A stretch of 61,995 nt of DNA, filler included, from Dimorphilus gyrociliatus (lineage: Eukaryota > Animalia > Annelida): assembly GCA_904063045.1 (NCBI GenBank). It is 3 parts of 3 records of this genome, joined end to end, with 100 filler letters (N's around TTAATTAATTAA, not from the genome) between each part and the next. Parts side by side here need not be neighbours in the genome. Positions count along the whole stretch, not along the records: positions 50,476 to 61,995 come from CAJFCJ010000261.1; 2 more parts are not named here. One strand, written 5' to 3'. The position numbers and the translations under genes were made by a program. The notes under the pieces are model-generated. The model was given only the letters and a program-made list of their open reading frames with translations, ran no database searches and was not told where the DNA came from. Every line of letters starts with the position of its first letter. Position 1 is the first letter of the stretch. Below, in pieces: positions 4,736-57,949 of this stretch.

Positions 4736-4784
4736 AGAAAATTGAATACTTTCAAGCACAATGACACAAATTTAATGAGGGTTG

Positions 4785-11605: not shown

Positions 11606-12217
11606 TGTACAACTTTGGTTATATTTTACATGCTTGAACTCTATTATTTTATGCAACATATACATGTACATCTTGAAACCTACGCAAGAAAATGCTATAA
11701 CACTGACCAAACATAAGTCTGATTAGTCAGTTTGAAGGCTCATCTTTAATTAACAATAAAGGTTTGGCCAAGTTATGATTTAATTAACTTGCCTAGGGTG
11801 TGGCCAAGTTATAATTCAATTAACCTTCCTAAATGTTCAACCTTGTAACATCCTCTTACTAAACATAAATATGAACTACACATTTCGGCAACTGTAAAGT
11901 GATGATTGGATGTCAGAGGCAAACCTCAAAGTATATAAATCCTCACTATTCTCATTCTGCATGCAGCTTCCATCTGAACCCAAGGACCTGGAAAGATAAC
12001 CTGGAAACAACTCCTCGACATTGGAAGACAGTTTGGTAACTTGGCAACCTGCTAATACAAACTATCTACTCTGCTATTGAACTCTCATATTGCACTTGCT
12101 TAAGTATTATTATTGTGAATAAACCATTTTAATTTAAACATTTGTTTAAAAGGTTTGAGTAGAACCAGTATTGTTATAACTTGCAAATGCATAGATTTTG
12201 CCAGCAAGAGCAGTACA
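11606..12217 (+). mobile_element. Solo LTR of the contig-3 gypsy family, 4-bp TSD ACAT
   Basis: TGTAC...GTACA termini, ACAT at 11602-11605 and 12218-12221, colinear with LTR 56943-57577 apart from substitutions and an about 20-nt deletion. Confidence 0.93.
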
Positions 12218-13632: not shown

Positions 13633-14266
13633 TGTACAACTTTGGTTATATTTTACATGCTTGAACTCTATTATTTTATGCAACATATACATGTACATCT
13701 TAAAACCTACGCAAGAAAATGCTATAACATTGGCCAAACATAAGTCTGATTAGTCAGCTTCAAGGCTCATCTTTAATTACCAATAAAGGTTTGGCCAAGT
13801 TATAATTTAATTAACTTGCCTAGGGTGTGGCCAAGTTATAATTCAATTAACCTTCCTAAATGTTCAACCTTGTAACATCCTGTTACTAAACATAAATATG
13901 AACTACACATTTTGGCAACTGTAAAGTGATGATTGGATGTCAGAGCAAACCTCAAAGTATATAAATCCTCACTATTCTCATTTGGCATGCAGCTTCCATC
14001 TGGACCCAAGGACCTGGGAGAATCATCTGGAAACAACCTCCACTGGAACCATCCATCTACTCCTCAACATTAGAAGACAGTTTGGTAATTTGGCAACCTG
14101 CTTTTACAAACTATCTACTCTGCTATCGAACTCTCATATTGTTACTTGCTTAAGTATTATTATTGCGAATAAACCGTTTTAATTTAAACATTTGTTTAAA
14201 GGTTCGAGTAGAACCAGTATTGTTATAACTTGCAAACGCATAGATTTCGCCAGCAAGAGCAGTACA
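13633..14266 (+). mobile_element. Solo LTR of the same family, TSD GAGT/GAAT (one mismatch)
   Basis: TGTAC...GTACA termini, nearly identical to 56943-57577. Contains a duplicated TGGCCAAGTTATAATT(T/C)AATTAAC motif, TATATAAAT and AATAAA. Confidence 0.92.
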
Positions 14267-15740: not shown

Positions 15741-16374
15741 TGTACTGCTCTTGCTGGCGAAATCTATGCGTTTGCAAGTTATAACAATACTGGTTCTACT
15801 CGAACTTTAAACAAATGTTTAAATTAAAACGGTTTATTCGCAATAATAATACTTAAGCAAGTAACAATATGAGAGTTCGATAGCAGAGTAGATAGTTTGT
15901 AAAAGCAGGTTGCCAAATTACCAAACTGTCTTCTAATGTTGAGGAGTAGATGGATGGTTCCAGTGGAGGTTGTTTCCAGATGATTCTCCCAGGTCCTTGG
16001 GTCCAGATGGAAGCTGCATGCCAAATGAGAATAGTGAGGATTTATATACTTTGAGGTTTGCCTCTGACATCCAATCATCACTTTACAGTTGCCAAAATGT
16101 GTAGTTCATATTTATGTTTAGTAACAGGATGTTACAAGGTTGAACATTTAGGAAGGTTAATTGAATTATAACTTGGCCACACCCTAGGCAAGTTAATTAA
16201 ATTATAACTTGGCCAAACCTTTATTGGTAATTAAAGATGAGCCTTGAAGCTGACTAATCAGACTTATGTTTGGGCCAATGTTATAGCATTTTCTTGCGTA
16301 GGTTTTAAGATGTACATGTATATGTTGCATAAAATAATAGAGTTCAAGCATGTAAAATATAACCAAAGTGTACA
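15741..16374 (-). mobile_element. Mirror copy of solo LTR 13633-14266
   Basis: Reverse complement within the fold-back 2 arm. Confidence 0.9.
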
Positions 16375-17778: not shown

Positions 17779-18391
17779 TGTACTGCTCTTGCTGGCAAAA
17801 TCTATGCATTTGCAAGTTATAACAATACTGGTTCTACTCAAACCTTTAAACAAATGTTTAAATTAAAATGGTTTATTCACAATAATAATACTTTAGCAAG
17901 TGCAATATGAGAGTTCAATAGCAGAGTAGATAGTTTGTATTAGCAGGTTGCCAAGTTACCAAACTGTCTTCCAATGTCGAGGAGTTGTTTCCAGGTTATC
18001 TTTCCAGGTCCTTGGGTTCAGATGGAAGCTGCATGCCAGAATGAGAATAGTGAGGATTTATATACTTTGAGGTTTGCCTCTGACATCCAATCATCACTTT
18101 ACAGTTGCCGAAATGTGTAGTTCATATTTATGTTTAGTAAGAGGATGTTACAAGGTTGAACATTTAGGAAGGTTAATTGAATTATAACTTGGCCACACCC
18201 TAGGCAAGTTAATTAAATCATAACTTGGCCAAACCTTTATTGTTAATTAAAGATGAGCCTTCAAACTGACTAATCAGACTTATGTTTGGTCAGTGTTTAT
18301 AGCATTTTCTTGCGTAGGTTTCAAGATGTACATGTATATGTTGCATAAAATAATAGAGTTCAAGCATGTAAAATATAACCAAAGTTGTACA
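17779..18391 (-). mobile_element. Mirror copy of solo LTR 11606-12217
   Basis: Reverse complement, flanked by ATGT/ATGT. Confidence 0.9.
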
Positions 18392-19257
18392 ATGTGGAAT
18401 TAACACTCTTTTTCTGGTCCCACCTAATCCTCTTATGTGTCTGTCTTGATATGGGAGGTTCATTATTGAATAGTTTGGATATGATAAATATCTTCTTAGC
18501 TTGATGCATTCAACATTTTTATCTAGAGTTTTTCAAGATGATGTATGACTTTGTGTATTATTACCAACAATTAACAGGCATAAACCACTCTAATTTGTCT
18601 TATTTATCCAGTTCATTTCTTGTCCAATGTGTTCATTGACTATTTGAACCCAGTCAGCAAATGTGTTAATTGTAGGTTTCTTTATTAAGTCTTTATTTTC
18701 TTTGATAAAACCATATTCAATCAATTCACTTTCCATCTTCACATTGTTTAGAACTAGAAACTCATTTACTTAATATATTTTCTTTAACTGAAATACTGGC
18801 ACTTTGTTGATTAATTTCTACAAAAATTACATTTTTTAAGACTATTTGTGTAGGAACTTGAAAGGTTCTATTTGTGTGAGTACTTTGGTAAATTGATAAT
18901 AATTGGAAAGGACAAATACTGTTCCGAAGAAGCAGATATTCCTATGATTACAATACAACAAAGTACATATTCTATATGCTTTTCCTATGTATTAATAAAT
19001 AAAATGTCTGGAATTCAAGAGTATGGTTTCACCTAATATGACTAGGGTTTCAATCAGGTATGGTTTACCCCTATTTTGTTAAATTTCAAGTGTATAATTC
19101 AGCTCAACAGATTCTGTATAATGTGATCATTATATTATTCAATATTATATTTATATACTTCTTAACAACCTATTTTAGCAATATCCATTTAAAATATTTG
19201 CATTTTAGACACTTCCACATTTGATTTATTTAAAAGATATTTAAAATTTCCCATTTT

Positions 19258-20871
19258 TCATAAAATATCACAAATTTTAAAAAACAAAAATAGATACTCT
19301 TTCTTCTGAGGTGGTTTCATTCTTTCTTCAAATGAATTTATAATAAGTTCTGAATCAGAGCCTGGATAGGTTTTAGTGCCAGCTTCTTCAGTGGTGTTTT
19401 GGTAGTTGTGAAAATATTTTCCCAACATTCCAAAAGTTATTTTTGTCATATTTGCTTGTTTTTCCAGATTTTGTTTGTTGATTTTGGGCTTGTTGTATAA
19501 ACTTCTTAACTGGTTCCCCTCTTTTGATAAAGAATGGAGGGAAACTTGTTTTGTTGCAAAGTTGATAATGGCTCCAGAATTTTGTAAGAAGTCACAACCA
19601 AGTATTACAGCCATATCCAATTTTTCCATAATGAAAAATTCTTGTTCATAATTCTTCCAGCAAACTGGATGTTCAATTTTGCTTTTCCTTTAATCTTTAA
19701 GCTTTTCCATCTGCTTAAGTGATGGTTGGTAAGTCTGTAGTTTCTATCATGATGAATTTATGGTCCATTAGCCTGATTTCCTTTTCAGTAATAAAGGACA
19801 TAAAGGCTCCTGTATCACATAAGGCAATGACCTCTCTTCCATTATGATATTTAATTCGAAATTGGAAATCTTTTCTGCCTTTTACCAAAGAAGTACACTT
19901 AAAATGTGCGATTTTCTCTTTTTTTGAGATTAAATGTTGCCATTCTTCCTTTAGAAATTTCAGTCTCATTCGGTTCATCAGGTCCAACATGTATTAGTCT
20001 CTTAAAGCTGCCTTTTTCATTATTTCCTGCATTTCCATTTCTTTGTTGTTGAAATCTATTTTGAGAAAAAGGTTTAAATGTATGTTCATTTTGATTTGAG
20101 TTACTCTGATTGTTGTCAAATCTCCTTTGTACTGTTTGAATCATTTTTGCTTTCCTTTCTTGCATTATCAAAAAAATTTTTTGCTGTTTTTGCCAAATTA
20201 ATATACTGATTAACTGAGTTAATCTTTCCATCTTTTTCCCACATGATTAACAATTTTTCCTTTAAGACCATTCCTGAATACAGTTAACAGTTGAAGTTCT
20301 CTAACTCTTTCAGTAACACAAGCCATTTCAGTATTATTGAATGGTAGGAATTTTTCCCCAAGTTCTTTACTTCTTCTAATAAAACTTTGGACAGTTTCAT
20401 CATTGAAACTGTCTCAATCTATCAATTTCTTTTTTGTAAGCCATAGGATCTGGATTAAATTCTTCATCCAATGCATACCAAATTTCATTTTCATTTGCCA
20501 TGGAGGGTAAACTTTCAATAGCATCTCTGGCTCTTCCAGTAGTATATTTTCTCAGCATTCGAATTCTTTTCTCCTCTGGATCCCAAAGGTTTAATTCACA
20601 AGCTGTTTGAAAGTTCCTCTTAAAGGCCCAAGTATCTTTGCTACCCGAATAGGGTCTCAGCAAAGTAGTATTAGGTTTCTCATTAGCATCAATTAGAAGA
20701 CTTGCAATTGTCTTTCCAAAGTGTTATCTTGAATGCCATCATAAGTGAATTTTGGTTGAGTAGGATCAGGATTAACCATACCTTCAGGAATTGTAGCTCC
20801 CCAGTCATCAAATGGTACTTTAAAAAGCTATTACCATCAACATTGGCTCCACTACTTTTAATTCTCAACAT
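19258..20871 (-). pseudogene. Third (mirror) copy of the Gag-protease derivative, fragmented by indels
   Basis: ORF-track fragments 19258-19629, 19715-19990, 19899-20231, 20400-20663 and 20689-20871 reproduce 9117-10761. Confidence 0.85.
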
Positions 20872-20907
20872 TAATTATTAATTATTGAAAGATACTCATC
20901 TACTTCT

Positions 20908-21007
20908 NNNNNNNNNNNNNNNNNNNNNNNNNNNNNNNNNNNNNNNNNNNNTTAATTAATTAANNNNNNNNNNNNNNNNNNNNNNNNNNNNNNNNNNNNN
21001 NNNNNNN
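20908..21007. other. Artificial contig linker (44 N + TTAATTAATTAA + 44 N)
   Basis: Exactly 100 nt with a six-frame-stop core; identical to 50376-50475. Confidence 0.97.
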
Positions 21008-26778: not shown

Positions 26779-28073
26779 ATGAATTGGGAAATGCTCAAAC
26801 AATTTGAGGAATTATTAAATAACTGCTCAAAACATCAAATGGTAACAATTCCACTAATTGTATATGATATACCAAATGATGATTTCTTTACTATTTGTCA
26901 AGGTTTGCAAAATTCTTGTCATACTTTGAAAATCTTAAATTTTACAAGTTGCTCTCTAAATTCAAATTGCTATAAAAATATTGGAAAATTTTTAAAATTT
27001 TTTTCAAATATTGAAATTATTAATATTCAAAATATTTTCTGTACAAAGAACGATATATAAAATATTTGTGATGGCCTTGAAAATTCGTATAAAACCTTGA
27101 AATTAATATATTTTAGTGGAAGCGAAACTGTTATTGAATCATGGATTCCTCTATTAAGCTTGTTTATCAAATGTCCAAATAGACTAAAAATAATTGATTT
27201 TTTGAATTTGAAGTCAACCATAACTGAGTAGATGACTATATCATCAAATACAATAAAAGAGATTAGATTAAGTGAACTTTTTCTTAATCTTGACGTATTA
27301 ATGGATTTGGCAAGTGTCGCACGACAACATACAAGAATAAAATCAGTAGAATTAGTTAAAGCAAATGATAAAAATATGTCATCCATAGTTTGCAGTGCTC
27401 TGGAAATGTCATGTAACAATATTGAAAGCATTCATATTTCACTAGGAGGCTCACAATTTCTAATTTCTGGAAACAGTATAGCACAACTGTTGAGTAAATG
27501 TTGTAAACTTGAAACGGTAATATTATCTTCCAATTTGAGAGATGAACAAAACAATATATTCAAAGAATTGGAAAAATTTTCTGCTTCTTTAGAGGATTTG
27601 AGTTTTAAAAACTGTCAGTTAGATGATAGTCATTTAAGATTTATTGGAAATTTATTAAAATAGTGTACAAAACTTGAAAGTATCTGCTTAAGTGAAAATC
27701 AAATTTCAGCAAAAGTTTGTACTATATTTGAAAATTCATTGAATGAGATTGACCTTAACAAACACTTTTAAATAAAATTGTATTTTCTAATTGTAAATTA
27801 CCAGAAACTGACTGTGAAGATCTTTCAAATCTTTTATATATGTGTCCACACATTAAAACAATAGATCTAAGTTTAAATCAAAATACGGGAAATCGAATTG
27901 TAAATCTTCTAAAGTCATCTCTCTGTTTGGAGGAGATCAATTTAGAATACTGCAAATTAAAAAGTAATGTTTGTAGTAGCTTTACCAAACTGATTATTAA
28001 ATGTCCATATATTCAATCCATTAAGCTGGAAGGTAATGAAGATTTTATTAAGAGTATGAATATTATAGATTGA
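26779..28073 (+). pseudogene. LRR pseudogene; internally deleted, inverted paralog of 39753-42929
   Basis: ORF fragments 26779-27060, 27232-27663 and 27840-28073 align closely with the 1058-aa LRR protein. Stops and block deletions are present. Confidence 0.9.
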
Positions 28074-32314: not shown

Positions 32315-32456
32315 ATATTTTTAACATTTGACCAAAAGTTATTATCCATACCTCAAAATCTAATGTCAATCTCTTTCAATGAATTTTCAAATAGAGTACA
32401 AACTTCCGCTGAAATTTTATTTTCACTTAGGCAGATACTTTCAAGTTTTGTACATT
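32315..32456 (-). pseudogene. Short inverted piece of an LRR gene closely matching 40545-40685
   Basis: TTAACATTTGACCAAAAGTTATTATCC...GGCAGATACTTTCAAGTTTTGTAC is present at both loci. Confidence 0.85.
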
Positions 32457-34969
32457 ATCAGGATTTTTTGATATTTGTCTTGGACTTGAAAATTCCATAA
32501 TTACTTTAAAGTCTCTTTTTGTAACATTTCAATTAATTGATAATATATATGATAAAGAAAGCTATAGTGGTTTTTGTAAATTTTTAAAGAAATGTACTCA
32601 AATTGAACATTTTACATTCAATGATCGATCAAATTATGAAAGTGAATTATTTACATTTTGCCCTTCTTTGGAATCTTCTGCAAGTACACTAAGAGAAATT
32701 CATTTATGTGATATATATTTTAATCCGAAAAATTCACACTACATTGAGAATTTATTGTTAAAATGTGAAAATATTGAAAGTATAAATATAGATATGCATA
32801 ATCACAACGAATTTCGACTATGGTCCATATTTTCTGCACTTAATTTATCAGCAAAAAATTTGAAAGAGATTAATATTTACTTCAAAATGAATTCCGAAAT
32901 GCTTATGCAATTTGAGAGACTTTTAAATAATTTCTCAAAACTTGAAAGTGTAACCTTTCCATCAATATCCAGTAATTTAGGAAATGATGATATGTTTACT
33001 ATTTGTCAAGGATTGCAGAAATCTTGTAAAACTTTAAAAAAACTAGAATTTATCTTTTGTTCATTAAATGCAAAATGTTTTATAAACATAAGAAATCTTT
33101 TACTCTTTTGCTCAAATATTGAGACAATTATTATTGAATATAGTACCTGTATAGAAAATTATGCATTAAATATTTGTGATGGACTTGAAAATTTTTATAG
33201 TTCTTTAAAATTTCTATATTTTGATAGATGCATAAATGTGGAAAGATTGCTGACACCTATAGTAAATTTCCTTATAAAATGTTCATATAGACCAGAGATA
33301 CAACTTGAAAGTGCTTCTATGGATGGACATATCCGGCTTTTGAATGTAATTGATAAATGACTATTTCATCAATTACTATAAAAGAAATCAATTTGGATGA
33401 ATCTCGCTTATCTATTCAAATTATAATAGATTTGGCAACTATAATACAACAGCATACAAGAATTGAATCTGTAAGCTTAGTTGGTATAAATGATGAAAAT
33501 GGAATTTTGGTGTGTGGATTTAGATGATATTCACTATAATAACTTAAAAATATTTTTAGAGAAATGTTCAAACATTGAAAGATTAGATCTATCAAGAACC
33601 TCTTCTATTCCAAATGATTGCTTTTCAAAAATCATTAAAGCTATGGAATATTCATCCAAAAAATTAAGAAACTTAAATTTAAGTTTTTGTAATATCAATA
33701 ACGAAAATGGTAAAAAGTATTGCAAATCTTTTGAAGAAGTGTTCAAAAATTGAATCATTTGATCTAAACAGTAGCCAAGATATTGGAGGTTCATTAACAA
33801 ATATTTGTAAACAACTGGAGAGATCAGCAACCAATTTGAAAGAAATTAATTTCAGTAGATGTAATATCAGAGATGAAAGTTGTAAAAGTCTAACACAACT
33901 ATTGAGTAAATGCTCTAATATAGAAAAGATTATTTTATCCTCAAATTGGAATTTGAGCGATGAATTCAATAATATTTTAAAAGAATTAGAAAAATCCTCA
34001 ACTACATTGAAAGAAATTTGTTTTGAAAGTTGTAATTTGGCTAATAATCGCTTAATAAATTTTGGAGATCTTATGAAAAGGTGTACAAAGCTTGAAAATA
34101 TTAACATAAGCCATAATAAAATTTCATCAAAACTATGCCTTGAATTTGCCAATTTATCACATTCACTAAAAGTCTTAGATATTAGTTTTTGTGATATGGG
34201 TCAAACAATTTGGCTTGATATTAGAAATATGTTAAAAAATTTTCATGATATTCCAACTATTCATTTACTTGAAAATACTGATCAATATTACATACCTTTT
34301 GGTTTTACAGGGAAAGTCAATGATAAAGAAATTTCATTTTGTTTAACTATATATATAAAAAATACTTTGCCATCAAACATTGGAAATATTATTTTAAATG
34401 CCTATGAAGTTTCTACAGTTCATCTTGGTGGAAGATTTCATAATAGTTTTGAACTTTTGACCATCTTAAAGTATTTTTCCCAGGCTGAAACTGATGTGGC
34501 TAGTGTTGACTTTAGTTGTTGTGATCTTAATGAAAAAATGTGTAATTATATTGGGAAAATTTTTATGTCATATCCTAAAATTCTATCTGTTGATTTTTCC
34601 TGCAATCCAAATATGTCAGATGCTTTTGGATATCTATTCAATCCACTTCAAATGTCAGGCTATATCTTAAAACAAATAGTCCTTTGTAATTGTAATTTAA
34701 CAGAGAATTCATGCATGATTCTTGTAGAACTTTTATCTGACTGTAATTCTATCCAATTAATAGATCTAAGTTTTAATGAAAATATGGGAAATTATATTGA
34801 AGACATTATTAAAGAACTTCACAACTCAAATCTTTACTTGAAGGAGATTTATCTGGAATACTGCAAACTAACAGAGAATGTTTATGAAAGCCTTAATAAT
34901 CTATTAGTTAAATGCCCAAACCTTCAATCTATTGAGCTTGGAGGGAATGAAAATTTAATGAAAAGTTAA
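32456..34969 (+). pseudogene. Intronless RNI-like LRR gene, 5'-truncated and frameshifted (ORFs 32668-33360, 33490-33753, 33707-34969)
   Basis: Colinear with the 1058-aa LRR protein (e.g. ICQGLQKSCKTLKKLEF, IDLSFNENMG). At least two of the frameshifts fall in A runs. Confidence 0.85.
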
Positions 34970-39752: not shown

Positions 39753-42700
39753 CTAACACGAATAGGACTCATAAGCATACACCACAGTCGATTTGTAATA
39801 TTCATACCTTTCAATAAAATCTTCATTACCTTCCAGCTTAATGGATTGAAGTTTTGGACATTTATTAATCAGCTTGTTAAAGTTACAACAAGTATTATTC
39901 TTTAAATTGCAGTATTCTAAATTGATCTCCTCCAAACAGAGAGATGACTTGCAAAGATTTTCAAAAACTTCCATAATTACATCTCCCATATTTTCATTTA
40001 AACTTAAATCAATTGTTTTAATGTGTGGACATATATATAAAAGATCTGCAAGATCTTCACAGTCTTTTTCTCCTAATTTACTATTAGAAAATGCAATTTC
40101 ATTTAAATAACAACTTGAACTTTTAAGTCCATTGCATAATTCTCTAAAATTATATGATATGTTTGGATTATTTGAAAAATTTACAGATTTAATATAACTA
40201 GAAGAATTCAGAAGATTTCCAATAATTTCATATATTCTTAAATCAAGATTGCAATTACTGAGATTGACACCAATTAGACTATCTTTACATTCCCAAAAAT
40301 ATTGAAGAATTTTTACAAGTCCAGGTATATTTTGGAATGTTTTACCAAGATGTTCTGTTGATATTTTATATGAATTTAATATAATATTTCCAATATTTTG
40401 TGACATATCATTATTCCTTGTATTGATTTCACAAATTAATGTCATTTCTTCATCATTGATTGTCCCTTTAAAAACAAAACATATCAAATCATCTATTGAA
40501 TTTCCATGCAAATGAATAATTGGAATATGGTGAAATTTTTTCAACATATTTTTAACATTTGACCAAAAGTTATTATCCGTACCACAAAATCTAATGTCAA
40601 TCTCTTTCAGTGAATTTTCAAATAGAGTACAAACCTCCGCTGAAATTCTATTTTCACTTAGGCAGATACTTTCAAGTTTTGTACACTTTTTCAATAATTT
40701 GCCAATAAATTTTAAATGACTATCATCTAATTGACAGTTTTTAAAACTCAATTTCTTTAAAGTAGCAGAAGATTTTTCCAATTCTTTGAATATATTGTTT
40801 ACTTCATCTCTCAAATTGGAAGATAATATTACCGTTTCAAGTTTACAACATTTACTCAACAGTTGCGCTAAACCGTTTTCAGATTCATCAACGACAGGAC
40901 AAAGTGAAAAATCAATATTTTTTAACTTATTGGCTGATCTCTCCAATCCTTTAAAAATATTTCTTAATGAGCTTCCAATAACACAACTTAGATCTATTGT
41001 TTCAATTTTTGAACAATTCATCAACAGTTCACTAATGTTTTCAACTTTTTTGTCATTAACGTTACATGAACTGAAATTTAAAATTTTCAAATTTTTTGAT
41101 GATTTTCTCAAACCTTTAATAATTTTTGAAAAGCAATCATCTGATAAAGAAGCATTGCCTGAAAGATCAATTTCTTCAATGTTGGCGCATTTCTCTAAAA
41201 ACTTTCCTAAATTAGTATAATGACTGGTGTCTTCATGTTGAGAACTCAATTTTAAAACTTTTAAAGTAGACACGGAATTCTGTAAACTATCCCAAATACT
41301 TGTAATCTGATTGCTTAATTCATTATCCTTAAATGAGAATGATTGAATTTTACACTTTTTCAAAAAATTACAAACTTTATTAAATGATCTATGATTCCAG
41401 TCTCCTTGTGAAATATGAATTCTTTCAATATTGTCACGTGACATTTCCAGAGCACTGCAAACTCTGGATAGCATATTTTCATCATTTGCTTTAATTAATT
41501 CTACTGATTTTATTCTTGTATGTTGTCGTACAACAATTGCCAAATCCTTTAATACATTGAGATTAAGAGAAAGTTCACTTAATCTAATCTCTTTTATTGT
41601 ATTTGATGATATAGTCATCTGTTCAGTTATATTTAACAATAAATCTTTTATAGGTATGGTTGCCTTCAAATTCAAAAAATCAATTAATTTTAGCCTATTT
41701 GGACATTTGATTAACAAGCTTAATAGAGGAATCCACGATTTAACGGCAGTTTTGCCTTCACTCAAATAAAGTAACTTTAATGAATTAGATGAATTTTTAA
41801 GGCCATCACAAATATTTAATATATCTTTCTTTTTATAGAAAATATTTTGAATATAAATAAATTCAATATTTGAACAAAATTTTAAGAATTTTCCAATATT
41901 TTTATAGCAATTTGAATTTAGAGCGCATTTTGTAAAATCTAAATTTTTCAAAGTATTACAAGAATTTTGCAAACCTTGACAAATTTTAAAGAAATCATCC
42001 TCTGGCACATCATATACAATTATTGGAAATGTTACCATTTGAAGTTTTGAGCAATTGTTTAATAATTCCTCAAATTGTTTAAGCATTTCCCTATTCATTC
42101 CGCATACAATATTTAATTCTTTTAATTTTTTTGCCAGTACATTAAGTGTAGAAAATATTGACCAAGGTTGAAAGTCTTCAAAACTACCATGTATATTTAT
42201 ACTTTCCATATTTTCACATTTTATTAAAAGATTTTCAATACAACGCAAATTTTTTAGTTTGCATTCAAAAAGTAATAAATCAAGTTTTCTTAGCGTCTTT
42301 GCAGATATTTCCAACGAAGTGCATAATTTAAGCAACTTTTTACTAGAACTTGAATAACAATGGATTGTGATGTTTTCAATACGATTACATTTCTGTAAAA
42401 ATTTATCAAAACATCTATGAGTTCTTTCATTCAACGTTTCAAATGTTATAGAAATTGATTTTAAAGAATTCAGGGAATTACTTAGTCCAAGCAAAATATC
42501 TAACCATTCCGATGTCTTTTGAATGTTTTCTTCTAAATTGAATACTTCAATTTGAAAGCATTTAATCAATAGCTTCCTAATCCATTTACATACACCATTA
42601 TCAATGCCAGAACGCCGAAATGTTATTTCTTTTAATTTTTTTGACGAATTGCCTAATCCTCTACAAATATTGGATAATCCATCTTTTAAATTAATATTAC

Positions 42701-42929
42701 CATTAATACTTATCTTTTCGATTTGAGTACATTCATTTAATAATTTTGAAATAGGAATACTATCTTCGTAATTAAGTTCAGCGTAATTAAAATTAATTTC
42801 TTTCAATGTTTTTGTTGATTTACTAAGGCCTTTGCAGATGACTGGCCAAATATATTCTGGATATAGCATTGCCTCTTGTTCTGAAATAGACATCATTTTT
42901 TTTATCGAACAATTTATTTGTCGAGTCAT
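39753..42929 (-). CDS. Intronless 1058-aa ribonuclease-inhibitor-like LRR protein (no NACHT, TIR, signal peptide or TM seen)
   Basis: Uninterrupted ORF with about 28/29-aa alternating LRRs throughout (LKEINF..., CxxIExIDLSxN). Confidence 0.9.
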   Translation of the reverse strand: MTRQINCSIKKMMSISEQEAMLYPEYIWPVICKGLSKSTKTLKEINFNYAELNYEDSIPISKLLNECTQIEKISINGNINLKDGLSNICRGLGNSSKKLKEITFRRSGIDNGVCKWIRKLLIKCFQIEVFNLEENIQKTSEWLDILLGLSNSLNSLKSISITFETLNERTHRCFDKFLQKCNRIENITIHCYSSSSKKLLKLCTSLEISAKTLRKLDLLLFECKLKNLRCIENLLIKCENMESINIHGSFEDFQPWSIFSTLNVLAKKLKELNIVCGMNREMLKQFEELLNNCSKLQMVTFPIIVYDVPEDDFFKICQGLQNSCNTLKNLDFTKCALNSNCYKNIGKFLKFCSNIEFIYIQNIFYKKKDILNICDGLKNSSNSLKLLYLSEGKTAVKSWIPLLSLLIKCPNRLKLIDFLNLKATIPIKDLLLNITEQMTISSNTIKEIRLSELSLNLNVLKDLAIVVRQHTRIKSVELIKANDENMLSRVCSALEMSRDNIERIHISQGDWNHRSFNKVCNFLKKCKIQSFSFKDNELSNQITSIWDSLQNSVSTLKVLKLSSQHEDTSHYTNLGKFLEKCANIEEIDLSGNASLSDDCFSKIIKGLRKSSKNLKILNFSSCNVNDKKVENISELLMNCSKIETIDLSCVIGSSLRNIFKGLERSANKLKNIDFSLCPVVDESENGLAQLLSKCCKLETVILSSNLRDEVNNIFKELEKSSATLKKLSFKNCQLDDSHLKFIGKLLKKCTKLESICLSENRISAEVCTLFENSLKEIDIRFCGTDNNFWSNVKNMLKKFHHIPIIHLHGNSIDDLICFVFKGTINDEEMTLICEINTRNNDMSQNIGNIILNSYKISTEHLGKTFQNIPGLVKILQYFWECKDSLIGVNLSNCNLDLRIYEIIGNLLNSSSYIKSVNFSNNPNISYNFRELCNGLKSSSCYLNEIAFSNSKLGEKDCEDLADLLYICPHIKTIDLSLNENMGDVIMEVFENLCKSSLCLEEINLEYCNLKNNTCCNFNKLINKCPKLQSIKLEGNEDFIERYEYYKSTVVYAYESYSC

Positions 42930-43409
42930 AAAAAGTCAATTTTGTGATCCACTGAAATCTCTGCTAATCTTCTTTATTGTGCTGTTTTTTATGATATATA
43001 TGGGTATATATAAAAAAGCTTTTTCTTCCTGAAAAGCAAATTAAGAGAATGTTTAACATGGGGGAAAAAAATCACAAAAATGTTTCATACTCAACAAAAA
43101 AAGAATGAAAAAGTAAATTAAACTAAACACACCTGATTAAAAAAGGCGGCTCTAACGAAATCTAAAAACAAGTTGAACTTTTTCTTGTTAGGATTCCTTG
43201 ATCAAGCATTCCAAGAGTAGAACTGAGAATATATGGATATAAAACTTTATTGGTTATAAGATAAGATAAAATCTCATAGTTTCAAGTACACTTGTAAAGG
43301 TAATGAATTATTCATATTTGTTTTGGATTCGGTCAAGAAGGCCTGTATTGCTACTAACTGACTCAGAGATATTCTAAAATATATTAGGAGTTAGACAAAA
43401 ATCCGATCT

Positions 43410-46745: not shown

Positions 46746-48683
46746 ATGAAAAGTTTTATATTTTCACTTTGTAAGTATTTTAATTCTGTTTTTCTTTTTT
46801 GCTTTTTGTAATTATCTACTCTATTCTATATAGTTTGCATTTTGCAACTGTTTTCATCGTCACTTGGTTTTATATGTCCTGTTGATGATCAGTTTAGACC
46901 AATTAATGGAGCGTATAGAGATCCAGAGTTCTGTGGTGCCTATTATCAATGTATAAATGGAACTGCTTTTCCTCAGAATTGTCCTCTTGGTCTGTTCTTT
47001 AGATTTTCAACATTGGATTGTAAGATTAGAACTTGCACTGAACCTGAACTTGCGGATTGCCCACCTCTAGGGAATGCAACCATTGAAAACGAACCTTTGG
47101 AATGTAAATCTGGACAAATAGATTTTAAAACTCCATGCTTCACAAAAACAAATGAGTGCGCTCCAAATTTAAATGCAACAGTTGCTAGTTTAGTAGATTG
47201 TAGAATCTATTACCATTGTCAAAATGGAGTAGCTTGGCCGCAGCAATGTCCTCCTGGATACTTTTTCAATCCTATAGTAAATCCACGAGATTGTACAGTG
47301 CAATTATGTGTTCCACCCCAAGATGCGAAATGTCCTAGTGACGGAAACTGGTCCGAATGGTCAGCATGGGGCGATTGCGAACCAAGGTGTGGTGGTGAAG
47401 GAATTCGTACTAGAACAAGAGATTGCAATAATCCCCCACCCTCAAATGGTGGTCGTGAATGTTCTGGATTACCAATTGAAATTGAAAATTGTCAAACACC
47501 TCCTTGTCCATCTGGCGAAAAACCATGCTTTATGGTATCACTGCAGTCAACCATTAGTGTATCAGAGGGAAGAATCCAATGGAGTTCTATTGATGTAAAT
47601 CAAGATAATCTCTACAATCCTTTGACCAGTCGTTTGAATATTAAAGAGGCAGGAGTGTATTACTTTGCGATGACTGCAACAATGAGCAGACAAACTGGAG
47701 CACATCTTCGCCTTCAGAATATTGGAAGGGAGATTGATTTGAAAAGAGATAAAAATGAAGATGGTATAGAGCAAATAAGTAGAAGTGGTTTATATTTCCT
47801 AAATCCTTTGTTTAGTCCATACATCAATCAAATGTTACCCACCGCATCCCTACTAGGTAGCAATGCTGGAAAGGATACAAACTGGGTAGGATTTAAATAT
47901 TCAACAGATAATTATATTTTTGTTGGGTCAGATAGTAGTTCTCTGGAACAAAATTATATTCCATTAAATATTCTTGTAAATATGAGAGGCTATTCAATCG
48001 GTGCATCAAATACTGAATTCATAAACTTGGAAGGTGGAAAATATTTTATTCATTTTGGTTGTGGCATTGTGCCAAATGTTAATCTAAGAATCAGCATTTA
48101 TAGTAATAATCATAATACTCCTTATTCAAGGATACAAAGACTTGAAAACCAAATGGCTAGTTCCGATCAACTATCACGTAGTTTCATTAATGCATTACCA
48201 GCTAATTCTAAATTGCAATATAGATTGGATGGAGGCCATAATTCAACAATAGGCCTACCTACATACCTTATGGCATTCAAATTAAATGATAGTCTACCAA
48301 TTCTCTTTGTGCATCAAAGTTACAGATATCCATCATCTTGTTCTACTTTTATGCAGTTGATGGCTTTTAATGTTGTAATTGAAGATACAACTAATTCATG
48401 GACTATTAGAACTAGGGAATATAAAGTTCCAGTTACTGGTACATATTACATTGATATTAGTGTGGTTGTCATACTCAGAAACACTGTTGAAGCCTATGTA
48501 GAAGTTAATAATATTAGAAAATTCAGACTATTGAAATTTGGTAGATCTCATGGAAGATCAGAGCTTATATCAAAAGGTGGATTAATTCAAATGTTTAAGG
48601 ATGATATCTTAACTGTAAGATATAGAGGTTGTATGACAGCTGATGACATGGTTTCATCAATGGTAATCTTTTTACTACCATAG
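46746..48683 (+). CDS. Secreted protein of about 624 aa: signal peptide, 2x chitin-binding type 2 (CBM14), TSP1, 3x C1q-like; exons 46746-46770 and 46834-48683
   Basis: The 63-nt GTAAGT..TAG intron yields MKSFIFSLFCILQLFSSSLG. Motifs: CGAYYQCING...CPLGLFF, CRIYYHCQNG...CPPGYFFN, WSEWSAWGDC...RTRTRDC..GGREC, and GVYYF / GKYFIHF / GTYYID. Confidence 0.9.
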
Positions 48684-50375: not shown

Positions 50376-50475
50376 NNNNNNNNNNNNNNNNNNNNNNNNN
50401 NNNNNNNNNNNNNNNNNNNTTAATTAATTAANNNNNNNNNNNNNNNNNNNNNNNNNNNNNNNNNNNNNNNNNNNN
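50376..50475. other. Artificial contig linker (44 N + TTAATTAATTAA + 44 N)
   Basis: Identical to 20908-21007. Confidence 0.97.
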
Positions 50476-51485
50476 TCTGTACATTGGTTAAGACTTGGTA
50501 AGGGGTTGTTTCGCTTGTATAGTATAATTTGTTCTTCAACTTTATTGGGATAGTTTAATAGTCGTTTTTCTTCATTTTTGCCAATCTCTGATATTGTAGC
50601 AAATTGTATAGGTGTTCCTTGCTTGTTTCCTGTATTAAACTCTGTTCCTCCAGTGGTACTAGTACTTTTGTTCCAGGACCACCAATTCCATCAATAAACT
50701 TATCTGATAAGGGATGTCCAGAATAGAATACCCTGGACAAGAATAGTGACCAGCAAATTTGATACAACTAATTCTGTTGCTAATTTTTATCCATGGTGAT
50801 TGTTGCCCAAGTGTGTAATTATTCTTGAGGTTTCTAAAGACAATAATTGCCTCTTCTGTCTCACAATAGGACTGCCCTGGTAAACAATCTTCCAGGTAGT
50901 CCAGATTAGTTGTAATTTTCATATTAGGAGGTTGCCAATATGCTTTGCCAAACTGGATAATTGTGGTGTATTCCAGCACCTTGGTCGTTGTTGGCCATGT
51001 GTAGGCAGCAGGAAACTGATCTTGGTGGATCCAAGTGTTTCTTTTCACCATTAAAGGTTTTCCTTGAAAAGATCGTTTGTCTTTTATCATCTGTCTGCAT
51101 TGATCATGAGTTACTTTGATAACTGAGTTAACAATCCTCCTCTTCTTTGCTCCAAAGAAATAGTAAGTGTAAAAATTAGTTCTTAGATACACTTGACATT
51201 TTACTGCTCTTGTTTCAATTTCTTCCAAGTTCAATTCATAGATATCAGCTGTAATTGTCTTGGTTTCTTGTGATTCTATATTACAAGTTGGCTCATCTGC
51301 TAGATCAAATGCCTGGCTTGGTAGTTGGTTAGAACAAAAGTATAACGGTGGTTTAAATGTTAAGGTAATGTTTGCACTTGTAACATGGCACCTTGGTAGG
51401 ATGGTTTTGGGACTGTTATTGAGTGGATGCAGCCACAGATCACCATTACAGTCATCACTAGTGGAAGCCACAACATCTGTTTCAT
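50476..51485 (-). CDS. env: Env-like glycoprotein resembling a class III viral fusogen; two apparent frameshifts, truncated
   Basis: Signal peptide MKQMLWLPLVMTVMVICGCIHS (ATG 51485) joins ORF 50659-51471 by one added A at T4 51405-51408. KC...YYFFGAK...QCRQMI and AAYTWPT resemble fusion loops. Another frame is open from about 50665 to the contig end. Confidence 0.7.
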
Positions 51486-51719
51486 GTTAGCTCTTCCTGT
51501 GTTGGCTATAGTTGAATGGTTGAAAATTTTGTGTTGTTGTTCCACTCTGATAGTTATTCCATCTTCTAACTCTATATATTGTGGTTCCACTTCTTGTTGG
51601 GAATCTAATTGTTCAGAGATGATTTTAGTCTCATCTAAAAATATGACTGACTCATTGTCTGTGTCACTTGTATTTTTTTCTTTGTGTCTCACTTTCATTA
51701 TGATGTTTTAATTTTTCAT

Positions 51720-51723
51720 TTAT

Positions 51724-51760
<37 letters not shown>

Positions 51761-54700
51761 TTTCTGTGTCATCACTTTCAGATGAGCTTGAAGGTTCATT
51801 GAGACTGTAATTACTGTCTGTTTTGAAAGTATTGCTTGTGTCATAACCAGTATCAGAATTAGTAACTTCCATCTCTGAGTCATCACTATCTGAGCTTTCT
51901 GATGAAGAGTCATGCTGTCCCATCATGGCTATAGTGACTTTGTTTAGTTGAGGTTGCCTTATTCTTTCAGCCAGGTTCCCTTTCCTTCTATCAAATTTGA
52001 GAGAACACTGTTTAGCTTCAAAATTGAGGTTTGCTCCCACAGTTTGTAGGAAATCACAACCAAGTATTATTGCTATGTCTAGATTTTCCATAACTATAAA
52101 TTCTTGTTCCATACTTTCTCCAGCAAATTGGATATTCAGCTTTACGCTTCCTTTTTGCTTTAAAGCTTTCCCATCAGCTGAAGTTATAATTGGTAAGCCA
52201 ATTGTTTCTTTATCCATAATTGTAACATCCATTAACTTGATTTCTTTTTCAGTAATAAAGGATCTCAATGCTCCTGTGTCACACAAGGCAATGACTTCTT
52301 GGCCTTTTTGATTCTTCAAACGGAATTGGAAGTCATTTCTTCCTTCTACCTGAGAAAGATATTGGAGGTGTGTTATTTCCTTCTCCACAAGGTGAAAGAT
52401 TGTTGTTGCTTCTTTCCCTGTTTCCAACTTATTAGATTCATTGGCTAGTCTTAATCTGCTACCATGTACCAACTTGCATGTATTATCATCCATTTGTATT
52501 TCATATATCCACTTTTGATGATTGACTTTTGTTATTCGGTATGGGCCTAACCATTTTAAAGAAGGGATTTTTGTTATTGCAATTCTTGCAGCATCATTTC
52601 TTAAGAATACTTCATCATCAACCTCAAAATATTTTGGAAGATTGAGATTTCTATTCTTTCTTTCCCTATATTGTTCTTTTGCCATGATGGATTTACAGAA
52701 GGCTGTAGCTCTTAACTGTACTAATTGCTGCTGGTGATTGAATACAAATAGTACATTTGTTTCAGGAGAGGTAGTATGCATTGTTACATCAATCAGTGTT
52801 CTTGTGCTGGTGCCAAAAAGAAGTTCCTGGGGTGGTAGTCTTGTACTTCCTACAGGTGATTGATTCAAAAATGCTTGAATCAAGGGTAGGTTTGCAACCC
52901 AGTTATGCTGATTTTCTTCCACCACTAATTTATTGATTTCCTTCCTCACTTCTCTATTTCTTCGTTCAACTAGTCCATTGCTCTGGCTTCTATAAGCTGT
53001 TGTTTGGATTTTCTCAATACCTAATACCTTCATAAACTCTTTAAAAGCTTTACCAACAAAGTTTCTTCCTTGATCTGTCAACATTTGTTTTGGAATTCCA
53101 AAAATGGGAAAAAATCTGTTGAAAAGAAGGTTTGCAATTTCTTTACTGGTTTGCTGTTTGAGTGCATATAAAACTGTGTATCTACTGAAATGATCCACTA
53201 TCACAAGTATGAATCTGTATGACTTAACCATGGGTAAGGGTCCCATTATATCCATGGCTACCAACTCCATTGGTGATGCAGGGTGAAAGGTTTCTACCAA
53301 AGGGTATACTCTACTCCTACCATTCATTTGTTCACACAAAGTGCAATCCTTTATTGAATTCTCAATCATAATCTTTAATTTTGGGTGCCAAAAGGTCTTT
53401 GTAATTATTTGTAATGTCATTCTGGGTCCATGGTGATTGTGAATTTTATTTTTATGGAATTTAGGGAGCAGAGTTAGCATCAAATGGTCAGGTAAAACCA
53501 GAATGTTTCTTTCTTCAAGGATAATCCAGATCATTTCCTTGTGAACAAACATCTCCATTATGAAAGGTGTAAAAGTTCCAAAATAAGGAATAGGTAGCTG
53601 ACCATCCAATGTTAAATATTCTTTAATTGATTTTAAATTCACATCTTTTTCTTGCTCTGACTGTAAGTCAACAGAAGACAAATCAATTTTCTCTTCACTG
53701 TTATCACTGGTAGCTACAAAAGTTAACTCTGGTGTATGTTCATACTGTTCCATTTTAACTGAAATAGAGGGAGAATTCTCCTTTTTGATCTTTCCATGAA
53801 TTAGCTCTTCAAATGTTACTTTCCTTGGGGGTGTATATTCTTCTAATCTTGTTAATGCATCTGCTCTATTTTTTCGTCCTGTCACATAGTTAATTGTAAA
53901 TTTTAAATCCATTAAAGCCATGACCCATTTTGCTGTGCTGACATTCAATTTGTTTTGCTTAAATGTTTGTACTAGACTCTGATGGTCAGTATATAAAAAG
54001 AATGGCTTGTCTTGAAGGTAATGTAAAAATTTCTTTACAACCCAGTAAACACCAAATGCTTCCTTTTGATAGGCTGCATATTTCATTTGATTATTGTTGA
54101 ATTGTTTTGAAGCGTAGGCAATGGGTTTCATTGTTTTCTTCCCATTCTCATCTACATAAACTTGTTCAAGAACTCCTCCTACAGCTACATTCGATGCATC
54201 TGTTGTTAAGTGAAAATCTTTAGCAAAATCAGGTAGTTGTAATACAGGAGGGTTAACTACTGCATCTCTCAACTTGAAAAATGATTGCTTGGCTTCCTCA
54301 GTCCATTGCAATTTATCCTTTTTCCCATGTAGTTTCATTAACATATACAGAGGTTTAGCTACTCTTGCAAAATCTTGTATAAATTTTCTGTAATAGCCAC
54401 AAAATGCAACAAAGCTTAGTAGTGAATTTGCAAACACTGGTGGCTGTAAATTATATAATTTATCTGTCTTGGACTTATCTGTTTCAATCCCCTTTTCTGA
54501 TACAATGTGTCCCAAGAATTGAACTTGTTCTTTCAAAAACACACATTTACTTAGTTTAATCTTAAAATTGTACTTTTGAATCTGTTGAAGAATGGTCTCC
54601 AATGCTTCCCAATGTTGGTCCAGCGACTTGGTAAATATTATTATGTCATCAAGGTAGTTTAGGCACAAATGCTTTACATCCTTTAGCACAAATGAATTCA

Positions 54701-56882
54701 TTACATAACTAAAATGAGGAGGGGCATTGGTTAATCCAAAAGGCATCTTAATAAATTCAAACAAGCCAAAAGGTGTAATAAATGCTGTTTTAGACCTATC
54801 TTCTTTCTTGATGTTAATGTGGTGGTATGCACTTGTCAAATCCATTGTAGAAAAGAATTTATTTCCTCCTCCCAAATGGTCAAAAAGATCATCTTGATTT
54901 GGCAGTGGATACTTGTTTTTAACTGTCATTTTGTTTAGTTTTCTATAATCTACACACATTCGTAGACTACCTTCCTTCTTTCTTACGAAAACAATTGGTG
55001 AAGCCCAATTGCTCTTGCTTGGTTGAATAACTTTGCTTTTTACCAATTCAGCTATCTGTTGCTTACATTCTTCTTGTTTTTGAGGAGGCATTCTATATGG
55101 CCTTTGTCTATATGGTGTTGAACCTGGTTCAAGAGTTATTTCCAAGGGTGGTACCTCTGGATTGCCAATATCAAATCTGTCTTCTGCAATAGTTTCTTTA
55201 TATTTTGCCAGAATTTGGGTAACTTTGTTCTTCATCTCGGGATTTTCTTGTTCAATTGTTGTCTGAAGGGTATGTATTTGACTCTCATTCTTTTTCATAA
55301 TAAGAGGAACTGGGTAAAACCCTTTGAAAGATAAGTGTTGTGTTCCAACAGGGTAATTCTTTTCTGTACCTGGCTGGAGTATAATCTGTCTCTTGCCAAA
55401 GTCAAGGGTAGCTCCATTTTGTTGTAGAAAGTCACACCCAATAATACATTGTTGTGTAATGATTTTGTTGATCAGAAAGCGTTGTTTAATAATCTTTTCA
55501 TTAAAATAAAGTCTGAGAATGATTTCTCCACATATCTCGATGCTATTTCCTGAAGCATCTCTAGCATTTTTCACAGTTTGTTCTGGGAAGGATGCTTTTC
55601 CTTGAACTTGTCTTAATACCTTTTTTGAAATGAAAGATCTGTCACTACCAGAGTCTATCAAGGCATCAAACTTAAAACCAGTATTAGTTTCAAATTGTCC
55701 AATAAATGTTGAAGCATTTCGCTCAGATTGTTTGCTTTGTAACAGCTGACAAGTGGATTCGTCACTATCTGAAAAACAGAGAATATCTTGAACTTCGTCG
55801 TTTTCTGACATGCTTTCATTGTCTAATGTTTCTAATTTTTGTAGCTTAGGTTCCTCTTTCAGTATCGTCTTTGCTGGTTGATTTTTCTTATAATACCTAT
55901 TTGTTGTAGTTGGTGCATACTTTTGGACTTTTTGGCTTGAAAACTTTTCTTTAGTAGCATTTTTGTTGTCAGGTACATGCTTTCTATTCCAGAAATTTGG
56001 GGTTTCTGTAGAAGCATCTTTTCTGATTACCTGGGTCTTTTTGGTCTCTTTTCTTTGTTGAGTTTCCAATTTTGACACCATTGTGATCGGTTTTCTTTGA
56101 GTTAGTTTTAATGAAGTTTCTGCTTGCTTAGCAGCCTCATATAGTTCTGCCAATGTTTGACATTTAGGATGTAAGGTGTACACTAAATGTAGAATATCCT
56201 GTTGTAATCCTCTTTGTAAAACTTCCATCAGTTTTATTTCTTTCATAGTTGCAAGCAATTGTGGTTCCATTGGTCTAGGTGGAGAAAACCTCTTTATCAA
56301 TTTCTTTGCTCTATTAACAAACTGAACCACACTTTCGCCATTCATTTGCTTTAAGTTAAGCAATTTCTCCTGATACTCCAAAGGATCTAGATCAAATTCG
56401 TCATGGAGGGCTTTCCATATTTCCTCCACAGTAGGCTCTCCATCCAGAGCCAACACCAAATCCTTTGCAGGACCAGTTAAATAATCTAAAAGATTTGCTT
56501 TCACAACATCTTCTCCTATCCAACCATAAGCATAACATGCCTGATTAAAGTCTTCTTTGAATTTTGAACACTCCTTGCTTCCATCATACAACTTGAGAAT
56601 AGTTCTTTGAGGGCGGTCCCAAGCAGCCCTTAATGCTTGAATTACTGTTGTGATATCAACATTTGGGTTCTGTGCTGGGTGATGTGTTCCATCTCCATGA
56701 TCTGTTGGAATTGTGATTCGATTTCTTTTCATTTCACTCACCAATCTATCATAGTCTTCAATTAGTCTTTGTTGCCTTTCTGACATTCCTGCTGGCTGAA
56801 TTGTAATTGTTGGAGTTGCTGGGGTTGAAGGGTTAGAGTCTGTAACTGCCCCAGTGGCGTTTCCATTTCCTCCTTCTGCCAT
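51720..56882 (-). CDS. gag-pol: Gag-Pol polyprotein, 1720 aa from ATG 56882: Gag, PR1, RT, RNase H, integrase, PR2
   Basis: LIDSGS (55647-55655), YLDD (54645-54656), TDAS...E...TDH RNase H, HH/CC zinc finger, MDIMGP / TDQG / GLVER integrase triad, GPY motif, then LCDTGA (52272-52280)...ILGCDFL. Confidence 0.96.
51727..51758 (-). repeat. A32 homopolymer at the end of the pol ORF
   Basis: 32 T on the + strand, translated as a poly-Lys run. Confidence 0.95.
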
Positions 56883-56920
56883 ATTTACTTTCTCAAAACT
56901 TTTGAATAAACCAAAAGAAT

Positions 56921-56938
56921 ATCCTGTCGACTGCGCCA
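56921..56938 (-). promoter_or_regulatory. Primer-binding site, tRNA-Ser type (TGGCGCAGTCGACAGGAT)
   Basis: Lies 4 nt after the LTR end and is complementary to the ...ATCCTGTCGACTGCG-CCA type 3' end of animal tRNA-Ser. Confidence 0.88.
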
Positions 56939-56942
56939 AATT

Positions 56943-57577
56943 TGTACTGCTCTTGCTGGCAAAATCTATGCGTTTGCAAGTTATAACAATACTGGTTCTA
57001 CTCGAACCTTTAAACAAATGTTTAAATTAAAATGGTTTATTCGCAATAATAATACTTAAGCAAGTAACAATATGAGAGTTCAATAGCAGAGTAGATAGTT
57101 TGTAATAGCAGGTTGCCAAATTACCAAACTGTCTTCCAATGTTGAGGAGTAGATGGATGGTTCCAGTGGAGGTTGTTTCCAGATGATTTTCCCAGGTCCT
57201 TGGGTCCAGATGGAAGCTGCATGCCAAATGAGAATAATGAGAATTTATATACTTTGAGGTTTGTCTCTGACATCCAATCATCACTTTACAGTTGCCGAAA
57301 TGTGTAGTTCATATTTATCTTTAGTAACAGGATGTTACAAGGTTCAACATTTAGGAAGGTTAATTGAATTATAACTTGGCCACACCCTAGGCAAGTTAAT
57401 TAAATTATAACTTGGCCAAACCTTTATTGGTAATTAAAGATGAGCCTTCAAGCTGACTAATCAGACTTATGTTTGGCCAATGTTATAGCATTTTCTTGCG
57501 TAGGTTTTAAGATGTACATGTATATGTTGCATAAAATAATAGAGTTCAAGCATGTAAAATATAACCAAAGTTGTACA
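56943..57577 (-). repeat. 5' LTR, 635 bp
   Basis: TGTAC...GTACA termini. Boundaries are confirmed by the solo LTR copies with TSDs. Confidence 0.95.
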
Positions 57578-57949
57578 ATAATATGCTATTTGTTGTATAA
57601 AAACAAGTAAAACTGACCTCATTTCCTTATTTTATCAAAAGGCAGTTCCTTAATTTGTCTAAACTGTTTTTTAAGGCTCAAAAATTCAAGGCCCTATATT
57701 TAGTTGCTTGATCGAAAAATATAAGATGAGGCTAAAAGATGAGTAGCAACCCAAATCATGGATATAATAACCACAATTTACTTTTAAAATTGAAAAGGCA
57801 CTATTCTAACAGCCATTTCAACACAAAAAATATGCTGATTTTATACACAAATTATTTTCTGTTTTCCAAATATTCCTTTACAATGCAGTGATTTTTTCAA
57901 AAAACACCAAAATTCTATACGAGTGATTCATTAAATCGAATTATGAAAT

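What the first reader, a model, noticed from the sequence alone, without database searches (positions are those of the whole stretch)
50476..51485. Env resembling a rhabdovirus-G-like class III fusion protein in a gypsy element
Seen: a signal peptide followed by a Cys-rich ectodomain. TRAVKCQVYLRTNFYTYYFFGAKKRRIVNSVIKVTHDQCRQMI and FPAAYTWPTT parallel, by my recollection of VSV G, GWMCH..WVTTCDFRWYGPKYITHSI...EQCKESI and FPPQSCGYAT, i.e. two aromatic fusion loops. Both cysteines of the loop-linking pair appear to be absent together. Established: LTR retroelements have captured viral fusogens several times (baculovirus F-like in errantiviruses; herpes gB-like and chuvirus-like genes in BEL/Pao). 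Inference: this could be an infectious gypsy-type endogenous virus with an independently captured class III fusogen.
Basis: partly seen in the sequence, partly recalled or inferred. Interest (0 to 1): 0.85.

Follow-up and report, generated by a model that had tools for sequence, protein, structure and literature searches.

The report
Worm retrotransposon with viral fusion gene
This is the envelope gene of a gypsy-type jumping element whose product is predicted to fold like the membrane-fusion proteins of rabies and herpes viruses; the element is likely one already described from a tiny marine worm, so it is real but not new.

Summary
On the minus strand, an LTR, primer site and gag-pol are followed by an env gene that an assembly gap cuts at 50475. 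Its 222-residue core folds confidently (pLDDT 80), and the 11 best of 48,161 structures are all class III fusogens. By sequence and register it is nearer mononegavirus G (rabies, VSV, nyamiviruses) than herpes gB. The missing cysteine pair is also missing in rabies G. The three frame breaks are probably assembly errors.

It is not new. Gypsy elements with class III env are published (221 of 1,512 in Chary and Hayashi, eLife). This element matches that table's Dgyr_errantivirus_1 in primer site, LTR length, 4-nt spacer, fused gag-pol and size. The same worm's 'Dingle' elements with gB-like env were described in 2020. I could not compare sequences, so identity is inferred.

Infectivity, the membrane anchor and independent capture were not shown. 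One oddity that I did not find in print is a second intact aspartic protease between integrase and env.

The parts
50476..51485 (-). env gene, 5' part (about 337 codons), in four frame pieces, cut by an assembly gap
   Evidence: contigs run on past the gap
51420..51485 (-). likely signal peptide of Env
   Evidence: ATG and hydrophobic stretch; homologs begin the same way
50701..51366 (-). Env core: predicted PH-like domain with inserted fusion domain of class III type
   Evidence: AlphaFold2 pLDDT 80; fold searches
51151..51168 (-). predicted fusion loop 1 (TYYFFG) at the turn of the long hairpin
   Evidence: strands 50-69 and 72-83; F70 and G72 invariant; aligns with the rabies G loop
50992..51006 (-). 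predicted fusion loop 2 (AYTWP)
   Evidence: loop between strands 111-118 and 126-145; W124 and P125 invariant
51720..56882 (-). fused gag-pol reading frame (gag, protease, RT, RNase H, integrase, second protease)
   Evidence: 1768-codon open frame; Pfam; first Met at 56882
55392..55679 (-). first aspartic protease (DSG)
54501..54986 (-). reverse transcriptase (YLDD)
   Evidence: RVT_1 E 4.7e-33
53910..54305 (-). RNase H
   Evidence: RT_RNaseH and RT_RNaseH_2
52989..53492 (-). integrase zinc finger and core
   Evidence: Integrase_H2C2 and rve
51996..52307 (-). second aspartic protease (DTG) after the integrase
   Evidence: four protease families above their cut-off; 28% identical to the first protease
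56927..56938 (-). primer binding site, 4 nt after the LTR; tRNA-Ser-like
   Evidence: the same 12-mer is listed under tRNA-Ser for 25 insect elements
56943..57577 (-). 5' LTR, 635-636 bp, TGTAC...GTACA ends
11606..12217 (+). solo LTR of the same family with a 4-bp target duplication; mirror copy at 17778-18393
   Evidence: 95.8% identical to the 5' LTR
13633..14266 (+). solo LTR of the same family; mirror copy at 15741-16375
   Evidence: 98.1% identical to the 5' LTR

Best explanation
The stretch is the 5' half of the env gene of a Ty3/gypsy LTR retrotransposon, encoding a predicted class III fusion glycoprotein, and the element is likely the published Dingle / Dgyr_errantivirus_1 family of the annelid Dimorphilus gyrociliatus. 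[quoted passage not shown] Inferred from the family: Env enters the secretory path by its signal peptide, is anchored by a C-terminal helix that lies beyond the gap, and forms trimers on budding particles. It would insert its two loops into a target membrane and refold to fuse it, carrying the element from somatic cells into the germ line as Drosophila gypsy does. The second protease most likely trims the C-terminal end of Gag-Pol, or is a passenger that came in with env; this is untested.
For: Domain order PR-RT-RH-IN, then env. All 11 chains with Z>=5 among 48,161 are class III fusogens; the next has Z 4.1. Foldseek's listed PDB rows are gB or thogotovirus glycoprotein. Homologs P0003, P0007 and P0009 run on to a hydrophobic C-terminal stretch (read), and P0009 hits Monjiviricetes_fusion at 68 bits. 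P0009 is the env of another gag-pol-env gypsy element, L001. Match to the published row: the PBS 12-mer is identical and occurs in 26 of 1,512 rows. Of these, only the Dgyr row has ENV_HSV and a PBS starting 4 nt after the LTR. Its LTRs are 631 and 636 bp against 635-636 here, it is labelled GAG-POL, and its 8.05-kb interior fits the 6.5 kb seen here plus the missing env end. LTR copies at 96-98% identity and an unbroken 1768-codon pol suggest recent activity. Contigs of 5 of the 7 runs laid carry the same three small gaps against the window inside env.
Against: The published element's sequence is not in the supplements that I could read, so identity rests on features, and the host species was not tested. 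The paper lists a chromodomain for Dgyr_errantivirus_1. Pfam found none in this pol at E<=10, although the end of pol lies in a stretch where contigs are about 140 letters longer than the window. The window's own env piece has no Pfam hit. The anchor and 3' LTR are not in the window. The top Z of 10.2 comes with an rmsd of 8 A. The model of the longer homolog P0002 is poor beyond residue 250 (mean pLDDT 55), so the trimer core and crown were not shown by fold. No function was tested.
Confidence: 0.85

Rival explanations
1. The env is a separate capture of a mononegavirus (nyamivirus- or rhabdovirus-like) glycoprotein by an annelid gypsy lineage, wrongly lumped with gB-type envs, and it arrived as a cassette with the second protease.
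For: The profile hits only rabies G among fusogen sequences in the PDB (4 sequences, E 0.004-0.008) and no gB. Model residues 33-222 match VSV G 34-222 one to one (Z 8.6, rmsd 4.5, 168 aligned), whereas gB needs a span of about 265 residues (Z 10.4, rmsd 8.0, 185 aligned). The best BFVD hit for both models is Beihai rhabdo-like virus 3, a nyamivirus of the species Berhavirus sipunculi. In the published table the Dgyr row is the only annelid element with ENV_HSV, and it was left out of the cysteine-bridge comparison.
Against: Identity to any viral G is only 13-20%. Entomopoxvirus proteins score about as well in BFVD. The same env family is on a pol only 26% identical (L001), which fits an old retroelement lineage or swaps between elements equally well. 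No tree or direction of transfer was tested. L001 has no second protease.
Confidence: 0.25
2. The env is a dead or dying gene; the element moves as an ordinary intracellular retrotransposon.
For: There are three frame breaks in the window. A decayed env remnant of a related family lies at 11438-11605.
Against: Contigs of 5 runs from 2 studies disagree with the window by three small gaps in this stretch, at full depth. The published element counts 7 copies with all three reading frames.
Confidence: 0.1
3. It is a different, undescribed env-bearing gypsy family from another invertebrate that shares the primer site and LTR length by chance.
For: No chromodomain was found. No sequence comparison was possible and the host is untested.
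Against: Five features match at once. Even so it would be one more member of a class with 221 listed elements.
Confidence: 0.1

Closest known systems
Dgyr_errantivirus_1 (Chary and Hayashi, eLife RP108449, PMC13524379) and Dingle (Martin-Duran et al., PMC7854359)
   Same: Ty3/gypsy with fused gag-pol and a class III env downstream of integrase; same PBS 12-mer, 4-nt spacer, LTR length and overall size; the predicted structure matches HSV-1 and CMV gB, as reported for Dingle.
   Different: The paper lists a chromodomain that I did not find. I find a second aspartic protease after integrase that neither main text mentions (the gene-map figures are not held). Sequences were not compared.
HSV/gB-type errantiviruses (221 of 1,512 listed elements)
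   Same: Gag-pol-env order, signal peptide, two aromatic fusion loops, class III fold.
   Different: The only annelid with this env type in the table; the fusion domain is in register with rhabdovirus G rather than gB; cysteine configuration not classified.
Rhabdovirus G (rabies, VSV, Chandipura) and Nyamiviridae G
   Same: Same length and layout of the PH and fusion domains; four cysteines aligned with rabies G; no loop-linking pair, as in rabies G.
   Different: Encoded by a retroelement; 6-20% identity; homologs' C-terminal half scores with Monjiviricetes_fusion and weakly with gB.
Nematode gag-env-pol elements (Sacco et al. 2022; title seen in a reference list, content recalled) and chuvirus-like env of mosquito BEL/Pao (Dezordi et al. 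2020; search listing and citation only)
   Same: A retroelement with a glycoprotein like those of negative-strand RNA viruses.
   Different: Gene order (env before pol) or retroelement family (BEL/Pao).

Membership tests
Ty3/gypsy LTR retrotransposon | PR-RT-RH-IN order with gypsy-type RNase H and integrase | tested here: met
   Pfam
Ty3/gypsy LTR retrotransposon | 5' LTR with TG...CA ends, tRNA primer site, 4-6 bp target duplications | tested here: met
   exact 4-bp duplication at one solo LTR, 3 of 4 at the other
Ty3/gypsy LTR retrotransposon | 3' LTR and polypurine tract | not testable with these tools
   beyond the N gap; no genome held
Ty3/gypsy LTR retrotransposon | placement in an RT tree | not tested
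   no reference set on hand
Class III viral fusion protein | elongated fusion domain with two aromatic loops inserted in a PH-like domain | tested here: met
Class III viral fusion protein | central helical trimer core and crown domain | tested here: inconclusive
   beyond the gap; homolog model low in confidence there; P0009 hits PF24664
Class III viral fusion protein | C-terminal membrane anchor | tested here: inconclusive
   not in the window; hydrophobic C-terminal stretches in 3 longer homologs, read by eye
Class III viral fusion protein | membrane fusion activity | not testable with these tools
   bench only
Rhabdovirus G proper | Pfam Rhabdo_glycop_FD above cut-off | tested here: inconclusive
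   window protein no hit; 1 of 9 homologs above cut-off, 2 below
Dgyr_errantivirus_1 / Dingle | PBS, LTR length, spacer, fused gag-pol, env type, size | tested here: met
Dgyr_errantivirus_1 / Dingle | chromodomain at the end of pol | tested here: inconclusive
   no Pfam hit, but the end of pol is collapsed in the window
Dgyr_errantivirus_1 / Dingle | sequence identity to the deposited element | not testable with these tools
   not in the supplements held

The most novel reading that the evidence does not exclude
This annelid gypsy carries a fusogen taken from a nyamivirus- or rhabdovirus-like RNA virus separately from other gB-type errantiviruses. It came as a protease-linker-env cassette, so the element runs on two aspartic proteases, the second serving the env end. 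A sister family in the same window has that protease directly behind gag with an env remnant further on, and may be a gag-protease-env element that lacks RT.
Probability: 0.2. Interest if true: 0.6.

Novelty: already known. Interest (0 to 1): 0.27.

Why it matters
Retroelements with class III fusogens bear on whether viruses gave their entry proteins to transposons or the reverse. This family is a useful case: it looks recently active, its likely host is cultured in the laboratory, and its fusion domain is closer to mononegavirus G than the published 'gB-type' label suggests. But the class and most likely the family are in print, so what is added here is that refinement and the second protease.

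Tried and rejected
No whole genome is held. The window's env piece alone found nothing in Pfam, PDB sequences, the longer-protein search, metagenome contigs (140 candidates, none confirmed) or earlier findings. The alignment search returned only two of its own members. Viral contigs gave nothing for P0007 or P0001. The integrase-end plus second protease region found no homolog among 940 candidates of 972-3094 aa, which is weak evidence. The ESM Atlas gave Monjiviricetes_fusion at 0.87, a lead only. P0008 was dropped as an unrelated repeat protein. No RNA holder was listed, which says nothing about expression. Depths were not used. The flank beyond 57580 had no cover in X1-X4 and X6. X6 holds only short pieces. 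No LTRs were found in L001, which starts inside gag. Literature searches for 'second protease' with retrotransposon, integrase and env (0 papers) and for 'two aspartic protease' with gypsy (1 unrelated paper) found no description; 'protease' occurs once in each of the two main texts, not about this. The idea that the missing cysteine pair is unusual was rejected. Whether pol and env share one reading frame stays open: the window has stops between them, in a stretch that is collapsed.

Full report
Observation. The flagged stretch is on the minus strand. The quoted motifs lie in one frame, a hydrophobic N-terminal stretch begins at an ATG at 51485 in another, and the gene continues in two more pieces until the N gap that ends at 50475. 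The breaks are near 51370-51400, 50700 and 50600. Contigs of five runs (X1-X5, two studies) all differ from the window by the same three small gaps inside 50482-51676 at full depth; X6 barely covers the stretch and X7 shows one gap nearby. X1-X4 may be the window's own source; X5 is from another study. The breaks are therefore probably assembly errors. The same contigs run on past the gap, by at least 670 letters in X4, so the gene is longer than the window shows.

Context. Upstream lie a 635-636-bp LTR (57577-56943), a primer site 4 nt further, and a 1768-codon frame with gag, protease, RT, RNase H and integrase in the Ty3/gypsy order. Two solo LTRs, each also present as a mirror copy, are 98.1% and 95.8% identical to it; one has an exact 4-bp target duplication. 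After integrase, the same frame holds a second aspartic protease.

What the env is. The 222-residue core found 9 proteins at E<=0.001 among 1.84 billion representatives; 8 are env-like, and I dropped P0008. P0002 passes the Pfam rhabdovirus fusion-domain cut-off (25.6 against 22 bits), and P0005 and P0001 score below it. P0009 hits Monjiviricetes_fusion (68 bits) and gB below cut-off (24 against 43); four have no hit. The AlphaFold2 model (pLDDT 80, pTM 0.65) has a long hairpin with YFFG at the turn and a second loop with YTW. Among 48,161 chains, the 11 with Z>=5 are herpes gB, rhabdovirus G, thogotovirus GP and GP64. HSV-1 gB leads (Z 10.2, rmsd 8.0, 186 aligned), then Chandipura G among the rhabdoviruses (Z 8.1, rmsd 5.6, 172 aligned); the first unrelated chain has Z 4.1. 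Class III is thus well supported for this domain. The C-terminal half could only be tried on a homolog, and that model was poor.

Rhabdovirus G or gB. By Z score gB leads by about 2, but gB needs about 265 residues to cover what VSV G covers in 189. The profile's only fusogen hits in PDB sequences are four rabies G sequences at E 0.004-0.008; two unrelated proteins follow at E>0.4. In that alignment the four cysteines match, and rabies G too has none at the loops, so the missing pair (present in VSV G, from recall) is not unusual. In BFVD the best hit for both models is a nyamivirus glycoprotein, followed by entomopoxvirus proteins and other mononegavirus G; the first herpes gB is at rank 11 and 22. 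The env family also sits in L001, a gag-pol-env gypsy element whose pol is 26% identical and has one protease.

What is known. Chary and Hayashi (PMC13524379) list 1,512 env-bearing Ty3/gypsy elements, 221 with 'HSV/gB-type' class III env with signal peptide, fusion loops and variable cysteine bridges, and argue for an ancient association. I read the abstract, sections 6 and 14 whole, the first parts of 5 and 9, passages, and parts and searches of supplementary files 2, 3, 5, 6 and 7; figures are not held. The row Dgyr_errantivirus_1 has the identical primer 12-mer. Of the 26 rows with it, 25 are insect F-type elements whose primer site starts at or inside the LTR end, and only this one has class III env and the 4-nt spacer. 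Its LTRs are 631 and 636 bp, it has 7 copies and a fused gag-pol label, and its 8.05-kb interior leaves about 1.4 kb for the part lost in the gap. Martin-Duran et al. (PMC7854359; passages of the paper and preprint, and searches of the supplements including the review file; the figure itself not seen) named these elements Dingle and reported env similarity to CMV and HSV-1 gB. Against identity: the listed chromodomain was not found here, though the end of pol is collapsed in the window; no sequence could be compared; the host was not tested. Extended Data Fig. 3d of the genome paper and the authors' sequence repository may already show the second protease.

Mechanism. Most likely Env is a secreted, membrane-anchored trimer on particles of the element that inserts two aromatic loops into a target membrane and fuses it, giving cell-to-cell spread into the germ line. 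The fold and gene order are shown. The anchor, trimer, expression and infectivity are inferred from the family. The second protease is intact in the window and in the contigs of X1-X3. It is 28% identical to the first, so it is not a recent duplicate, and 48% identical to the protease behind gag in a sister element that also holds an env remnant. It most likely travels with env. It may process the end of Gag-Pol, or be dispensable, since X5 has a 60-letter skip in it.

Verdict. The feature is real and correctly read as a class III env of a gypsy element, but the class is published and this is very probably a named family. Interest 0.27. The open points are the mononegavirus-like register of the fusion domain and the second protease, which my two searches did not find described.

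Noticed in passing
window 51996-52307 (-): A second aspartic protease with an intact DTG motif follows the integrase in the same frame. It is 28% identical to the element's first protease but 48% to the protease of the sister element at 10054-10641. X5 has a 60-letter skip inside it, and X4 a one-letter gap there and another in RT.
   Followed up: partly
window 8775-11605 (+), mirror copies at 1-1700 and 18374-20906: Sister element: an LTR-like repeat ending near 9000, gag (29% identical), a protease directly after gag, a linker, an inverted copy of the repeat at 11024-11251 and an env remnant at 11438-11605 (44% to P0001, E 5e-13) cut by a solo LTR; no RT or integrase. It is either an internal deletion or a gag-protease-env element.
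   Followed up: partly
window 1-10489 and 9081-20906: Two overlapping mirror-image duplications at 98.5% identity, probably fold-back assembly artefacts; they double the count of solo LTRs.
   Followed up: partly
window 51677-51771: Poly-T stretch at the end of pol where contigs of X1, X2 and X4 hold about 236 letters against 95 in the window, so the poly-lysine tail and the end of pol are unreliable.
   Followed up: partly
BFVD hits Q9YVZ3, W6JPK9, A0A916P111: Uncharacterised entomopoxvirus proteins rank 2, 4 and 50 in the fold search (TM 0.57, 0.56 and 0.40), suggesting class III fusogen-like genes in insect poxviruses.
   Followed up: no
window 46812-48683 (+): Intronless host gene with chitin-binding CBM14, thrombospondin type 1 and C1q-like domains.
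   Followed up: no
window 39753-42935 (-), 32431-34969 (+), 27232-27663 (+): Family of long intronless leucine-rich-repeat-like genes in several copies; no Pfam hit at E<=0.01 for the longest.
   Followed up: no
L001 8694-10124 (+): The related gypsy element L001 has a fourth long open frame (476 aa) after env, and a long extension after integrase without a listed family.
   Followed up: no
run X7 on window 50476-57800: Contigs differ almost only by C>T and G>A (92 and 89 places), as in a base-converted methylation library; the element is present there.
   Followed up: no
window 20908-21007 and 50376-50475: Both N gaps are 100 letters with the same 12-letter spacer in the middle, an assembly join mark.
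   Followed up: no
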